From positions 342,984,001-343,048,000 of the forward strand of contig OZ024743.1 in assembly GCA_964016885.1 (NCBI GenBank): a stretch of 64,000 nucleotides of DNA, given 5' to 3'. Made by a program: the position numbers and the translations under genes. Below, piece by piece: positions 44,536-56,860 of the stretch; within the stretch, counting starts at the first letter, position 1; each line of letters opens with the position of its first letter. The notes below the pieces were generated by a model. That model saw only the letters and a program-made list of their open reading frames with translations, did not search any database and was not told where the DNA came from. This DNA comes from Eledone cirrhosa (Eukaryota).

Positions 44536-45360
44536 TGATATATATATATATATATATATATATATATATATATATATATATATATATATATATATCAACT
44601 AGAAATCGATTGACACATATATATATATTTAAAATAAACACATGTAACAATCACAGTGGATAATTTGTAAAGTGTGTAAGCACACACAGCTAGGTAGGTA
44701 ACTAATTAAAGTTTAACTAGAACTTCAAATATTACCTTTTAAAATGATTAATCTTCCTGAAATATATTTCACCATTAATCCGAAAACTCACAGTAGTCAA
44801 ATTACGAATCTTCAGCAAGGGAGAAGATTTAACTATCTGTGTTTACACATCCAATGCAAATCTGCGAATGACCTGTCGCACGTGTTGCATTTCTAAAACT
44901 ACACACATCGTGCTAGCGTCATCCCAGTGGCGTGAATAGGGTTATAGACAGCTATAAATAGCAGCCGAGTCCTTTCAACTGAGTTAGCTCTACATTTAAG
45001 GGACCGTGTATATATCCAAAATTAAATTAAATTAAATTAAGGGTCATGTCCGAGACATGCGCCATATCCACCGTAGAATAAGCTCAAAGATTCCAATGAA
45101 TAGATCCGAGCATTTTATATCAGGTCATTCGCAGATTTACATTGGATGTGTAAACACAAATATTTAAATCTTCTCCCTTGTTGAAGATCCATATTTTGAC
45201 TACTGTGAGTTTACGGATTAATGGTGAAATATATTTCTTTAATGAAATATATACAAGGAAGATTAATCTCTTTAGTCGCCGACGACCCGACCATGTGACA
45301 GGTTGTACTGGGTTACATGTTACCAGTAGCATTCAAGAGTGACCCGACATACATACATAC

Positions 45361-45741
45361 ACTGGGGTATGTTAGTAACTGCCTCAATACAAATCTTGAG
45401 AAGCTAGGCTTCACAGGAACAGAAAGAACACAACTAGTTAGGAAATTACAAGTACAATCCATTAATGGAGCAGTAAAAATATGTAAAATATTCCAAAAAT
45501 GTTGCATCTAATGACTGCATATACACATGTACAGATGCAAAGCATATACACATGCACACATACAACTCAAAACATCAACATCCACACATACAATAACATC
45601 CATATCTACACATGCATGCATACATACATATCTACCTAGTTGATGTTGTGTAAATTCCAATGAGAGAGTCTTGTGTCTATGTTAGAAACCTACTCTCTCT
45701 CTCTATTGGTAAAACTTTGTGAAATTATAAAACCGGAAGAA
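45361..45741 (+). mobile_element. R4-like RLE element family E, short 3' fragment in (TACA)n
   Basis: LGYV..NLEKLGF..LVRKLQVQSINGAVKICKIF; 3' UTR shared with 46391-47325; TACA on both flanks. Confidence 0.75.
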
Positions 45742-45751
45742 CATACATACA

Positions 45752-46297
45752 TGGTGGCTGCCAACTCGTTTTCGAGTACGGCCACTACTTTATATCCCTG
45801 TAGGAGAACCCCTACCGATGCGCTGAACGAGTGTGACTTTTTAGTCCAACCAGCGACTTGAAAACTCTGGTACAAACACTACACCTGTGACAATTATTGA
45901 CACATAGTGCTGGGCCCATGGTACCATGTGACGACAAGTGCAGAGATATCTCCAGTTATAAAGCAATGTCTGTGTCGTGAAGCTTTTATAGTGAGCAAAG
46001 GCACTGCACAAAGCCAGTCCCACTCTCTTAACCAAGAAGATATTTACCAAAAAGAAGAACAAGTCAACATCATTGGATACCATCAGAGTTGCAGGTACTA
46101 TATCAGGGTTTTCCTCCTCCTAGAATTCTGCCTTGACAAAGGCTAAGGGGTCATCTCTCCCGGTGATTTTGGATGGCCATTGACTCTTAAGAGCTCCTTT
46201 GCCCTTTGACAGGTTTTGTTTTGCCAGTTTAGTCGCCAACCATGAGACAGGTTGTACTGGGTTACATGTTACCAGTAGCACCAACTAGTGACCTGAC
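45752..46297 (-). mobile_element. Non-autonomous RTE derivative, family C copy 1 (5' fragment of another copy at 45272-45348)
   Basis: 3' ~190 bp nearly identical to the RTE end at 56861-57040; RTE-like 5' UTR motif ggaaaac.ctgat; TACA flanks. Confidence 0.8.
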
Positions 46298-46390
46298 ATA
46301 ATACATACATACATACATACATACATACATACATACATACATACATACATACATACATACATACATACATACATACATACATACATACAT

Positions 46391-47325
46391 AGCTCCCGAT
46401 TTGAAGGATATGCTTTTGCAATCCAAGAACGGGAAATCAACACGAAATACCTGATTCACAAAAGAGATAAGAATGCAGACAAAAAAACTAGATACGACAA
46501 GTGCAAACTCTGCAGAATTAACATCGAAGATGTCACCCATGTCATAAGCAGCTGTCCAAAGATGTCATCACGGTACTATCTACATATGAGGCATGTTGTA
46601 GTATCCAAAACACTGTACAATGCAATTCGTAGATAGCCCCGACAATAAACACATTAAAAGCTAGAGCAATGTGGAAGACATACATATATATAATATGAAA
46701 GAGTACTGGTGGAATGTTCCAGTAAAAACTGCAATAAAATGAAATCATGACAGACCAAATATTATGATATGGGACAGCGAAAACGAAGGCATACACAGTA
46801 CTGGAAGTTAGCTGCCCAGCAGATGCCAATATAATATTAAAGATCAGCGAAAAGGAGAATATCTCTGCAGAACTAATGAGAAATCTACAGATACTCCGCC
46901 CTGCTATACCTTCAGATTTATACTTGTGATAATTGGGGCACTGGGATGTTAGTAACAGCCTCAATACAAATCTTGAGAAGCTAGGCTTCACAGGAACAGA
47001 AACAACACAACTAGTTAGGAAAGTACAAGTACAATCCATTAATGGAACAGTAAAAATATGTAAAACATTCCAAAAGTTCTGTATTTAATAACTGCATATA
47101 CACACATACAGATACAAAGTATATGCACATGCACACATGTAACTCAAAACATACACATCCACACATACATTAACATCCATACCTGCACACATATGCATGC
47201 ATGCAGACATGCATACATAATCTACCTAGTTGATGTTGTGTAAATTCCAATGAGAGAGACTTGTAACTATGTTAGAAACCGACTTTCTCTCTCTATTGGT
47301 AAAAAATTATAAAAATTGTAAAACT
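46391..47325 (+). mobile_element. R4-like RLE element family E, 3' ~930 bp, decayed
   Basis: AIQERE, CKLCRINIEDVTHVISSC, EYWWNVPVKTA, HDRPNIMIWD. Confidence 0.8.
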
Positions 47326-47633
47326 TGTGTGTGTGTGTGTGTGTGTGTGTGTGTGTGTGTGTGTGTGTGTGTGTGTGTGTGTGTGTGTGTGTGTGTGTGA
47401 ACGTAACAATTTGTTGGGTCTCAATGATACAAACCTTTACATTACACACCTATGTATATAAGATTTCAATACAATAACTTCAAAGCCTTATTTTACTTGC
47501 TCCAATCCCTGTATGTCTTTGTGGCTTTGTGTTTGACTTGTGCACTTATTTGTGTAAATTTAATTCAAATTGGAAGTGTATAGAAACCAACTCAACAAAA
47601 TATTTGAATACTTTATTCTCATTCAATTGTTTA

Positions 47634-53705: not shown

Positions 53706-53861
53706 ATACATACATACATACATACATACATACATATACATACATACATATATACATACATGCATATATACATACATACATACATACATACATACATACA
53801 TACATACATACATACATACATACATACATACATACATACATACATACATACATACATACAT

Positions 53862-54410
53862 AGTCAACGCGATCAGTCGCATATTTTGGTGTGGGAGATT
53901 ATTTATTAAATTTAAGATGAATACTATCTCCGACAGTAATGCCACAACTACAGTCAGGTTGAATAACTGGTTATTCTTCTAAATATCCCTTCTGAAGACA
54001 CCTTTTATTCGAATTCGTAGAGATATCCGACTAAATACATCATTCATTATACAAGGATTTGCTACAAACAGCATTTGCTACAAGGATTTGCTACAAACAC
54101 AACATCAACAACAAAATTAAGGAAGTATCGAAGACAAATAACAAGGAAGGTAATCAAACTTTATTCAGTTGTAGCTACAGAAGAAACCGAAATTATAAAT
54201 CCCATTTCTCTTGGAGTTGCCAACTTAATAATGATTTATTTAATTGTTATAAAATGGCAAAAAACAATCTCTCCATTGACTATATGAATAGAATGAAGCT
54301 ACAATGGGACGAAATGCACCCAGAGCTAAATTATTTCACAGCGAAACAATTACGCCAACAAGCGACGTTTGTTGAACGTAAAAATAAGATAAATATTATT
54401 AATTGTAAGT
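53862..54410 (+). mobile_element. 5' end of an R4-like element (5' UTR plus Myb-like N-terminus) starting at (TACA)n
   Basis: WSCQLNNDLFNCY..DYMNRMKLQWDEMHP..TAKQLRQQATFV parallels family A WTKELNRTVMQCY..GYRRRMHNIW..DEQTLAGQARVI. Confidence 0.7.
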
Positions 54411-54686
54411 CCCCACAACAAACATGTTATCAACAACACGTGCTACAGGTCGCCATGCTACTAGACTTGCTAGCAGCCAGGTCGAACAGCGCCTTGAAAC
54501 AACTATGCCTGTAAGAAACTTGATGACAAGTGCAGAGAGATCTCCTGTGCCGTGAAGCTTTTATAGTGAGCAAAGGCACTGCACAAAGCCAGTCCCACTC
54601 TCTTAACCAAGATGATATTTACCAAAAAGAAGAACAAGTCAACAACATTGGATACCATCATATATATATACATACATATATACATA

Positions 54687-55207
54687 CGGAAAACAAAATT
54701 AACAACAAACGAGGAAGAATATATTGAGACAGATGGCACTAAGGAATACTGGTGGAACCTGAAAATAAAAACTGCCACCAAATTAAAGCACAACCGGCCT
54801 GATAGTGTTGTTTGGGACCACACATTGAAAACGTGTTCTGTTGTGGAGATCAGCTGCCCACTTGATGTAAACGTTGTCAGAAAAATACAGGAGAAGGAGG
54901 ACATCTACGGACCATTGATGAGGAGTTTACAGATCCAGTATCCAAGATACACCTTTAGCTTCATACCCATCATTATTGGAGCTAAGGGTTATATACCAAC
55001 CCGCTTCAGTACGACTGAACTTGGATTTGCGGACAAAGAGCGCAGCTCCCTAATTGATAATCTATAAATGGCGACGATAGCTGGCACCTTCAAAATTTGC
55101 AAAACATTCTTGCGATTCAAGGGATGACAATTTCTTTTCTTTTACAACCTTGCCACCAGGAAGGTGGTCGGTCAAAAAAATATACTCGAAATTAAGAGAA
55201 AGAGATA
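54687..55207 (+). mobile_element. R4-like family D, 3' fragment (family C fragment upstream at 54522-54660)
   Basis: Near-identical to 51866-52390. Confidence 0.85.
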
Positions 55208-55279
55208 TATATACATACATATATATATACATACATATATATACACATACATATTTATACACATACATATATATATACA

Positions 55280-56050
55280 TGATGATGGCTGCCCCCTTCG
55301 AGTTATCGAGTATGTCCATTGCACGAGAAAAAAAAACAAAAAAAACATAACAATAATAATAATAATAACAACTATAATAATAACGACAACAACAACAATA
55401 ATGATATACATATATATATATACACACACACGCACACATAAACATATCTATACACACACACGATAGCAATTAACAGCGCTGCGATCGAATGTGGCTTTTT
55501 AGCCCAGCCAATGATCTAAAATGTCTTGCACAGAGTCGGCAACCAAAACATTCACTGGGAATAGCCGGCTGTGGTTGGAGTTCATGTACTTTTGCATGTC
55601 GTTTGAGCCCTCCTGCTGATTTACATTCTCTACCACATGCTTGGCAAGCATGATGAGTAGCATCTCCAACAGCAGCCTTGTAGTCAACCACTGGTCTTAC
55701 TTTTTGACTGCGAAGATGACTTTCGAGTCCAGCTTTGCTTAGGCAGAGTCCCGCACAGACGCTCCATGTCAGCACCATAGGAGGACCCTCGCCGTCTGGA
55801 AGTGCAACAGCAATGCCCTTTCTCACATCCCGCTTTACTTTATCGTATGCGATTCGAGATGCCTCAAAGGCAACTTTTCCCTCATATACAGTCTTTCTCC
55901 ATTTATTACGATCAGCAGCAATATTTTCCCATGTATCAGCAGAGATGTTAGCGTCTTTCAAAGAGGATTTCAAGGAATCCTTATACCTCTTTTTTGGTTT
56001 ATGTGGCGGTCGTTTTCCTTTAACTAACTCTCCATAAAAGAGTTGTTTTG
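55280..56050 (-). mobile_element. RTE LINE family G, 3' fragment with three C2H2-type fingers
   Basis: [75 protein letters not shown]. Confidence 0.8.
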
Positions 56051-56860
56051 GTTATATATGTATATATATACATACATATATATATACATATATATATATA
56101 TATATATACATACATACATATATATACATACATACATACATATATATACATACATACATACATATATATATATATATACATACATATATATATACATACA
56201 TATATATATACATACATATATATATATATATATATACATACATATATATATATATATACATACATATATATATATATACATACATATATATATATATATA
56301 CATACATATATATATATACATACATATATATATACATATATATATATATACATACATATATATATATACATACATATATATATACATATATATATATATA
56401 TATACATATATATATATATATACATACATATATATACATATATATATACATATATATACATATATATATACATATATATATATACATATATATATATACA
56501 TATATATATATATATATATATATATACATATATATATATATATATATATATATATATATATATATATATATATACATATATATATATACATATATATATA
56601 TATACATATATATATATATACATATATATATATATACATATATATATATATACATATATATATATACATATATATATATATATATATATATATACATACA
56701 TATATATATACATATATATACATATATATATATATATACATATATATACATATATATATATATATATATACATATATATACATACATATATATACATACA
56801 TATATATATACACATATATATATATACATATATATATATACATACATACATATATATACA

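What the first reader, a model, noticed from the sequence alone, without database searches (positions are those of the whole stretch)
45272..56860. Microsatellite niche partitioning and a self-feeding (TACA)n cluster
Seen: Dong A and B sit only in TAA, hammerhead/PLE elements sit next to TA, and D, E, C and F sit in TACA-rich arrays. Within TACA, the RLE elements (D, E) are always + and the RTE elements (C, F) always -. Known: RTE tails are short tandem repeats. Inference: RTE insertions extend TATG/CATA arrays that RLE elements then target, giving a cross-clade loop that builds large clusters and compound microsatellites.
Basis: inference. Interest (0 to 1): 0.72.

Follow-up and report, generated by a model that had tools for sequence, protein, structure and literature searches.

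The report
Two retrotransposon clades share CATA microsatellites
Two unrelated kinds of jumping gene sit in the same CATA repeat facing opposite ways; one is a Dong-related lineage that is flanked by four-letter repeats (CATA or CTTA) in other DNA samples too and likely targets them, so each insertion of either kind would leave more landing sites for both.

Summary
Observation mostly confirmed, proposed loop only in part. 33 of 34 runs of ≥3 TACA units lie in 45.3-56.9 kb. RLE pieces face (CATA)n at 10 of 11 scored junctions; RTE families C/F face (TATG)n at 12 of 12. This holds beyond the window: in run X14, D and C are abundant dispersed families, and the best-supported loose ends at their 3' ends are CATA arrays of the same polarity. 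D and E form an R4/Dong sister lineage, distinct from TAA-flanked A/B. 8 of 9 relatives from other assemblies are flanked by (CATA)n or (CTTA)n, so the target and its strand look inherited rather than made by local RTE tails. The longest pure arrays lie head-to-head or between two RLEs, where no RTE tail reaches. Divergence suggests both nesting orders, and an RLE-only TAA cluster exists in the same window. Best reading: two clades converge on one microsatellite through opposite strands, with symmetric positive feedback. C2-C4 share rare alleles, so local duplication or conversion probably contributed. The PLE/TA niche is weak. The new part is a tetranucleotide-flanked R4/Dong lineage; Repbase could not be checked.

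The parts
45271..45351 (-). C0: 5' end of RTE family C, cut off on its 3' side next to a hairpin element (44759-45237); 5' end abuts TACA
   Evidence: 269 contigs continue as normal C before 45271
45364..45741 (+). D1: 5'-truncated RLE element, family D (end of RLE domain plus 3' UTR with conserved hairpin at 45673)
   Evidence: 3' flank CATA in run X14
45742..45752 (.). 11-bp CATA spacer, tail-to-tail between D1 and C1
45753..46297 (-). C1: full-length short (bipartite, non-autonomous) RTE, last 181 bp shared with the long C copy
46298..46391 (.). (TACA)22, head-to-head between C1 and D2
46392..47325 (+). D2: older 5'-truncated D (zinc knuckle plus RLE, decayed); 3' flank is (TG)37 at 47326-47399
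48321..50309 (+). decayed RT element of another clade (CR1/L2-like by recalled motifs) between TA-rich arrays
50481..50929 (-). C2: short RTE, 5' part replaced at a junction with a SINE half
50923..51039 (+). 3' half of the abundant ~190-bp SINE
51033..51276 (+). E1: 5'-truncated RLE element, family E
51277..51840 (.). 564-bp TA/TACA array ending in (TACA)23, between two RLE copies with no RTE end on it
51841..52392 (+). E2: 5'-truncated E with open RLE domain and 3' UTR hairpin at 52337
52429..52801 (-). C3: short RTE, 5' half lost at a microhomology junction with the E tip
52799..52818 (+). last ~20 bp of an E copy
53099..53703 (-). C4: full-length short RTE with arrays on both sides
53704..53862 (.). 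TACA array with a 23-unit pure run, head-to-head between C4 and N5
53863..54520 (+). N5: 5' UTR and N-terminal Myb/SANT-like domain (54158-54403) of a D/E-lineage element, closer to the D side than to E; rest deleted
54521..54658 (-). C5: internal fragment of short C; its 5' break equals one seen in run X7
54687..55204 (+). E3: 5'-truncated E
55283..56051 (-). F1: 5'-truncated RTE family F (C-terminal C2H2 fingers, 44% identical to C)
56052..56860 (.). 809-bp TA-dominated TA/TACA compound array
56861..59450 (-). long C copy (RT plus C2H2 fingers, decayed, 5'-truncated; 5' limit approximate); likely the mobilising family of short C
2611..14643 (-). control: RLE-only cluster of five Dong A/B copies in (TAA)n
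63545..64000 (-). F2: second F copy outside the cluster, same polarity in a TA/TACA array

Best explanation
The cluster is a (CATA)n microsatellite island holding pieces of two unrelated retrotransposon clades in fixed opposite orientation, likely because the RLE lineage D/E nicks and primes on the TATG strand while RTE families C/F anneal their AUGU-repeat tails to the CATA strand, and each insertion of either kind would split one array into two usable ones. SHOWN: the island, the polarity, the same 3' flank polarity for D and C elsewhere in run X14, a separate R4/Dong-related lineage whose relatives are flanked by (CATA)n or (CTTA)n, an N-terminal domain homologous to Dong A's, and a conserved 3' UTR hairpin. 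INFERRED: sequence-specific cleavage by the D/E protein (from R4/Dong biology); tail-to-target pairing for RTE (model in PMC6007223); later slippage that lengthens and mixes TA/TACA arrays; microhomology deletions (4 junctions) and some local duplication or conversion (C2-C4) that pruned and padded the cluster. The feedback is symmetric, not RTE-then-RLE.
For: (X14, 21,387 contigs laid): loose ends behind the D 3' end read ACATACATAC... (77 contigs, agreement 0.51) and before the C 3' end ...ATACATACAT (98 contigs, 0.56); listed joints include C-C (3) and D-D (1) tandems through short CATA/TA spacers; 8 of 9 related loci have a tetranucleotide flank in sense (L007 CATA on both sides, L008 CATA 3'; L004 CTTA on both sides, L002/L003/L005 CTTA 3', L001/L006 CTTA 5'); L009 ends before either junction. 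D, E and these loci form one clade (100/99 in the RLE tree; SH-aLRT 100 in the RT tree, which holds the relatives but not D/E) apart from A/B; purest arrays at head-to-head or RLE-RLE junctions; both age orders occur. RLE-only TAA cluster. Different 5' ends in all E and C copies.
Against: No biochemical test and no genome-wide table (no genome held). Loose-end rows are conditioned on matching the 11-bp CATA spacer of the reference, 552 rows were not shown, and none at a C 5' end was listed, so C's use of pre-existing arrays rests on 3 window copies and one X7 contig. The 9 loci come from few sources (7 from two assemblies with similar names; L002 and L003 are one family). Heterotypic alternation (P=0.012) is not predicted by pure convergence and needs loss of same-family tandems, duplication or a real cross-clade preference. 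Ages from distance to a majority are confounded by subfamilies. E was not tested in reads.
Confidence: 0.65

Rival explanations
1. One-way cross-clade loop: RTE tails create and extend the arrays, and RLE elements then colonise them.
For: C 3' ends carry (ATGT)n in X14. 4 of 5 RLE 3' ends with a TACA array face an RTE tail. D1 looks younger than C1 and sits 11 bp from its end. Alternation P=0.012. RTE tails as sources of microsatellites are published (PMC2887409 abstract).
Against: Purest long arrays are not at RTE tails, and the 564-bp E1-E2 array touches no RTE. C 5' ends abut arrays in 3 of 3 full-length copies. D2 and E3 look older than neighbouring RTEs. The target is shared with relatives at about 45-58% protein identity. 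The TAA cluster formed without RTE.
Confidence: 0.17
2. Local duplication or gene conversion of a C-array-E unit built most of the core (50.5-53.7 kb), followed by deletions.
For: C2, C3, C4 share alleles not in the X14 majority or its >=4% list (C1 coordinates 46014 in all three; 45996 in C2 and C3; 46089 and 46117 in C3 and C4). C2-C3 are 98.0% identical. E1 and the E tip have the same 3' junction. It would explain the alternation.
Against: C1, C5 and the long C copy lack those alleles. D, E, F and N5 are different families. No two copies share both breakpoints or partners, and array interruption patterns differ. A rare subfamily would give the same alleles. It cannot explain the flanks seen in reads and in L001-L008. 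As a contributor to C2-C4 it is plausible (about 0.5); as the main cause it is not.
Confidence: 0.13
3. Passive accumulation in a neutral repeat-rich region, or an assembly artefact.
For: The region is repeat-dense and also took a SINE and a third RT element. No listed contig spans the tested stretch. Waldo-A/B near CA repeats are explained this way (PMC3812793).
Against: Passive accumulation gives no strand rule (12 of 12 and 10 of 11). The same flanks occur in independent contigs and other assemblies. Copies differ by 2-6%, unlike collapsed reads.
Confidence: 0.05

Closest known systems
Dong (R4 clade, RLE non-LTR retrotransposon)
   Same: Single ORF with RT, zinc knuckle and RLE; N-terminal Myb/SANT-like domain without zinc fingers; insertion in a microsatellite with fixed polarity (features from PMC7998251 passages). 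A and B fit this fully, with TAA flanks.
   Different: D/E relatives are only about 29% identical to A over the ORF, form their own clade, and are flanked by (CATA)n or (CTTA)n instead of (TAA)n, which PMC7998251 gives as the target in most insects, molluscs and cnidarians.
Waldo (R1 clade) targeting ACAY repeats
   Same: Same repeat class as target: ACAT is a phase of CATA (PMC3812793 passage).
   Different: Waldo is an APE-type R1 element of insects; D/E carry an RLE. The shared target would be convergent.
RTE elements with microsatellite tails (PMC2887409; PMC6007223)
   Same: Short 3' UTR ending in a simple repeat; tail proposed to bias the cleavage or priming site.
   Different: Published 3' microhomology in animals is 1-2 bases; here full-length C copies lie inside (ATGT)n arrays on both sides, which looks like true array targeting.
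Bipartite non-autonomous RTE derivatives (Bov-A, RTESINE1/2, WALLSI3; PMC5786205)
   Same: About 600-bp element made of a 5' part and the last 181 bp of a LINE, with one shared internal junction in 4 copies.
   Different: The 5' part could not be matched to the long copy (which is 5'-truncated) nor to Pfam; its RTE origin is read from motifs only.
Other microsatellite-targeting elements: Togen (TG), Kibi/Koshi (TC, TTC), Mino (AC), some HERO
   Same: Use of microsatellites as safe landing sites.
   Different: Other clades and motifs; none described in the passages I read as sharing one array with a second clade in opposite polarity.

Membership tests
R4/Dong clade (for D, E, N5) | RT followed by zinc knuckle and restriction-like endonuclease in one ORF | tested here: met
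   Full-length relatives P0001/P0002/P0004 carry PF00078 and align end to end with A1 (E<1e-129); E2 58% and D2 57% to P0001 in the RLE and knuckle regions. The window copies are fragments.
R4/Dong clade (for D, E, N5) | N-terminal Myb/SANT-like domain, no N-terminal zinc fingers | tested here: met
   Profile match to the Dong-A group N-terminus, probability 99.0, E=3.6e-18. The N5 model has three helices, pLDDT 87.6; top VIA hits are SANT/Myb/trihelix domains at middling Z 5.5-6.6, rmsd 2.0-3.8, 50-69 aligned; Foldseek gave nothing significant.
R4/Dong clade (for D, E, N5) | RT phylogeny inside the R4 clade against named references (R4, Dong, Rex6, HERO, NeSL) | tested here: inconclusive
   Trees separate the lineage from the A group but hold no named references; nearest solved relatives are R2 proteins at E about 1e-37.
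Dong in the strict sense | (TAA)n target | tested here: not met
   Met for A/B (10 of 10 ends); not met for D/E and relatives, which have CATA or CTTA flanks.
R4/Dong clade (for D, E, N5) | Sequence-specific cleavage of the target by the encoded protein | not testable with these tools
   Needs biochemistry.
RTE clade (for C, F) | RT of RTE type with short 3' UTR and microsatellite tail | tested here: inconclusive
   RT domain (RVT_1, DUF6451) and repeat tail present; clade assignment rests on recalled motifs, no named reference was aligned.
RTE clade (for C, F) | N-terminal AP endonuclease | tested here: inconclusive
   The long copy is 5'-truncated; the 5' part of short C gave no Pfam hit in three frames and no significant tblastx match.
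Bipartite non-autonomous LINE (for short C) | 3' end shared with a coding LINE, one fixed internal junction, dispersed copies | tested here: met
   181 bp shared at about 94% with the long copy; same junction in C1-C4; abundant contigs along the whole element in X14.
Bipartite non-autonomous LINE (for short C) | 5' part derived from the 5' end of the same LINE | not testable with these tools
   No full-length partner is in the window and no genome is held.

The most novel reading that the evidence does not exclude
A real cross-clade ecosystem: RTE tails seed new (CATA)n arrays in unique DNA, an undescribed R4/Dong sister lineage with four-letter targets (CATA, switching to CTTA in another host) colonises them, its insertions make new RTE landing sites, and this loop drives both the unusual abundance of an RLE family and much of the compound TA/TACA microsatellite load of this genome.
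Probability: 0.27. Interest if true: 0.68.

Novelty: new variant of a known kind. Interest (0 to 1): 0.48.

Why it matters
Microsatellite targeting by Dong and microsatellite tails of RTE are both known. What looks new is an R4/Dong sister lineage with tetranucleotide flanks. TAA, TACA and TACT form a natural series on one small protein scaffold (one Myb-like domain plus RLE), which makes it testable how RLE retrotransposons read and change their target; that question matters for R2-type gene insertion tools. The opposite-strand sharing of one array by two clades gives a simple, countable model for how compound microsatellites and repeat islands grow in repeat-rich animal genomes, and warns that CATA markers there will have multi-copy flanks.

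Tried and rejected
No genome was held, so the contingency table could not be built. Rfam at gathering thresholds found nothing in the window. Run X20 held no reads of the stretch. X1 and X7 carry other organism labels but hold only 4 and 3 low-depth contigs matching the C majority; they may be trace DNA, so I do not count them as further hosts. Scans of viral and prokaryote collections for the lineage and for a C motif found nothing. A rank correlation to assign N5 to D or E was spoiled by zero scores and is not used; the assignment rests on best hits and an indel pattern. An HDV-like ribozyme descriptor gave no hit at the N5, C0 or A2 5' ends and only loose G-U-rich hits in C4; the C 5' end folds no better than shuffles (z -1.3). 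My hammerhead scans were crude (2 cores each). An automatic alignment of 3' ends did not align the hairpin; it was found by a pattern written after seeing it, so the shuffle counts (4-13 of 2000) are post hoc. Earlier-finding look-ups were empty. Ten paper searches and the passages read gave no CATA or CTTA target for R4/Dong, but none of the ten used CATA or CTTA as a term, Kojima and Fujiwara 2004 was not read, and Repbase is not available, so absence from print is not established.
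Full report
SETTING. The window is animal DNA rich in TA-type microsatellites and a ~190-bp SINE. An octopod host is likely but not shown: a relative of D/E is named from Argonauta hians (P0204), and RTE and Dong elements are reported from Octopus (PMC9115989, passages). No genome was held.

ANATOMY. Self-comparison, translation and alignments give this order: C0(-) D1(+) C1(-) D2(+), a TA/TG array, a decayed RT element of another clade(+), C2(-), SINE half, E1(+) E2(+) C3(-) E-tip(+) C4(-) N5(+) C5(-) E3(+) F1(-) long C(-). Neighbours are mostly joined by TA/TACA arrays. Four joints are microhomology or deletion junctions (C2/SINE, SINE/E1, C3/E-tip, N5/C5). Short C shares only its last 181 bp with the long RT-coding C copy, at the same junction in C1-C4: a bipartite non-autonomous element of the kind described in PMC5786205 (abstract, passages and a supplement search). 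N5 is the 5' end of an RLE element.

OBSERVATION. The island and the polarity are real: 33 of 34 runs of at least three TACA units lie in the cluster and none is on the other strand. C/F junctions face TATG in 12 of 12 scored cases and RLE junctions face CATA in 10 of 11; eight ends that touch no array were not scored. A/B sit in TAA at 10 of 10 ends. The partition is softer than stated: D2 ends in (TG)37, E 3' ends start with a TA run, F and long C lie in TA-dominated arrays like those beside PLE-associated pieces at 61.7-62.7 kb, and hammerhead-like cores are 100-251 bp from TA arrays that occur 49 times in the window.

BEYOND THE WINDOW, SAME FAMILIES. 19 of 22 listed runs hold part of C3. 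Laying four runs on 45240-46312 put 21,387 contigs of X14 on the stretch, none of X20, 4 of X1 and 3 of X7. In X14 both D and C are covered at very high summed depth (not a copy number). Of the six X14 loose-end rows shown, one continues the D 3' end into ACATACATAC (77 contigs) and one continues the C 3' end into CATA repeats on the + strand (98 contigs); the other four are internal continuations or variants. 552 rows were not shown, and these rows are biased towards contigs that match the 11-bp spacer. Listed joints show C-C and D-D tandems across short spacers and one D-C tail-to-tail joint. One X7 contig is a 5'-truncated C with CATA on both sides, broken where C5 is broken.

BEYOND THE WINDOW, RELATIVES. 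E2 found 9 longer proteins among 116 candidates. D2, E and N5 match these far better than they match Dong A. An alignment of 8 of the 9 retrieved 9 loci from 95 candidates. L007 is a full-length element with (CATA)n on both sides, L008 has it at the 3' end, L001-L006 have (CTTA)n on one or both sides, and L009 ends before its junctions. The polarity matches D/E. These loci stem from few sources, so the number of independent hosts may be only two or three. In the RLE tree (42 rows) D, E and all nine loci form one clade (100/99); E groups with L007/L008 (89/92); the tool flagged that long branches meet at this join. The RT tree (43 rows) recovers the lineage (SH-aLRT 100). N5 has the indel pattern of the subgroup that includes the CTTA loci yet lies in CATA, so CATA may be the older target. 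The N-terminal domain is homologous to that of Dong A and is predicted as a three-helix Myb/SANT-like fold, as PMC7998251 reports for R4/Dong (passages). A 6-bp stem with a 5-nt loop and central G lies 36-65 nt from the 3' end in E, D, six loci, A1 and B, with different stem sequences; the E 3' region folds at z -3.4. It is a likely RT recognition signal (inference). Named members come from an octopod and a hydrozoan.

TESTING THE LOOP. For: 4 of 5 RLE 3' ends with a TACA array face an RTE tail; D1 (5 of 332 sites off the majority) sits 11 bp from the end of C1 (13 of 470); the clades alternate (13 runs in 15 pieces, P=0.012, post hoc); RTE tails are known sources of repeats (PMC2887409, abstract) and are proposed to steer insertion by pairing (PMC6007223, passages). 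Against a one-way loop: three of the four pure runs of 20 or more units abut RLE 5' ends at junctions no RTE tail reaches; 3 of 3 full-length C heads abut TACA; D2 (22 of 313) is older than C1, and E3 (10 of 233 private differences) looks older than C5 (2 of 138) and F1 (97.9% to F2); the 12-kb A/B cluster formed in TAA with no RTE. These ages are rough.

TESTING DUPLICATION. Breakpoints and partners differ among copies and array patterns do not repeat. But C2, C3 and C4 share up to four alleles that are absent from the X14 majority and its list of variants at 4% or more, and E1 and the E tip share a 3' junction. A duplicated or converted C-E unit, or a rare subfamily, is therefore plausible for 50.5-53.7 kb. 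It does not explain the association itself.

MECHANISM. By target-primed reverse transcription (established knowledge), a + strand RLE copy was primed on the TATG strand and a - strand RTE copy on the CATA strand, to which an AUGU tail can pair. Two independent strand rules give the opposite polarity. Any insertion divides an array and adds tail or target duplication, so local target number rises with each event (inference); slippage and deletions then remodel the island. Confidence 0.65.

KNOWN VERSUS NEW. Microsatellite targets listed in PMC3812793 (passages) include TAA for Dong and ACAY for Waldo; PMC4640811 and PMC4494074 (passages) add TG, TC, TTC, TTCC and TTTC for other clades. PMC7650587, PMC3124438 and PMC5035012 (passages) added nothing on this. 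I saw no CATA or CTTA target for R4/Dong in ten searches, but none used those words and Repbase entries may already note it (I would put that near even odds). Verdict: a new variant of a known kind; interest 0.48.

Noticed in passing
window 2611-14643: RLE-only cluster of five Dong A/B copies, all on the minus strand and joined by (TAA)n; A1 keeps a 1131-aa open frame; A3 has an internal rearrangement at 14525-14643.
   Followed up: partly
3' UTRs of A1 (2692), B (10019, 12413), D (45673, 47263), E (51219, 52337, 55152), L002-L005, L007, L008: Conserved 6-bp hairpin with a 5-nt loop and central G, 36-65 nt from the 3' end, with different stem sequences; not found in A2 by the scan.
   Followed up: partly
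window 63125-63376: 3' end of a third RTE-like family on the minus strand with a (TAGA)n tail running into a TATG-oriented array; same polarity as C/F.
   Followed up: partly
window 54658 and run X7 contig 13: C is 5'-truncated at the same base in the window and in X7, at a CATCA microhomology to the array; perhaps a shorter subfamily.
   Followed up: no
window 46391, 51840, 53862: Three of four pure runs of 20 or more TACA units abut RLE 5' ends, while E 3' flanks start with a TA run; E may cut at the pure-to-TA boundary, or 5' joining may add units.
   Followed up: partly
window 44759-45237; 25344-25898; 17231-17881; 28513-29391: Several long inverted-repeat (foldback or MITE-like) elements; the one at 44759 lies beside the break of C0.
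   Followed up: no
window 25926-26980, 27171-27400, 59500-59890, 62228-62856: GIY-YIG fragment with a hammerhead-like core at 26731 and related short pieces that abut TA and TA/TACA arrays.
   Followed up: partly
window 19200-21250: Old decayed RTE-like element not flanked by a microsatellite.
   Followed up: no
L003:3748-3885: (CTTA)n flank grades into (CTGA)n and (CGGA)n, a compound array next to a lineage member in another assembly.
   Followed up: no
window 47632-48320: The one large array inside the cluster that is mostly TGTA-oriented; no C, D, E or F end touches it.
   Followed up: partly
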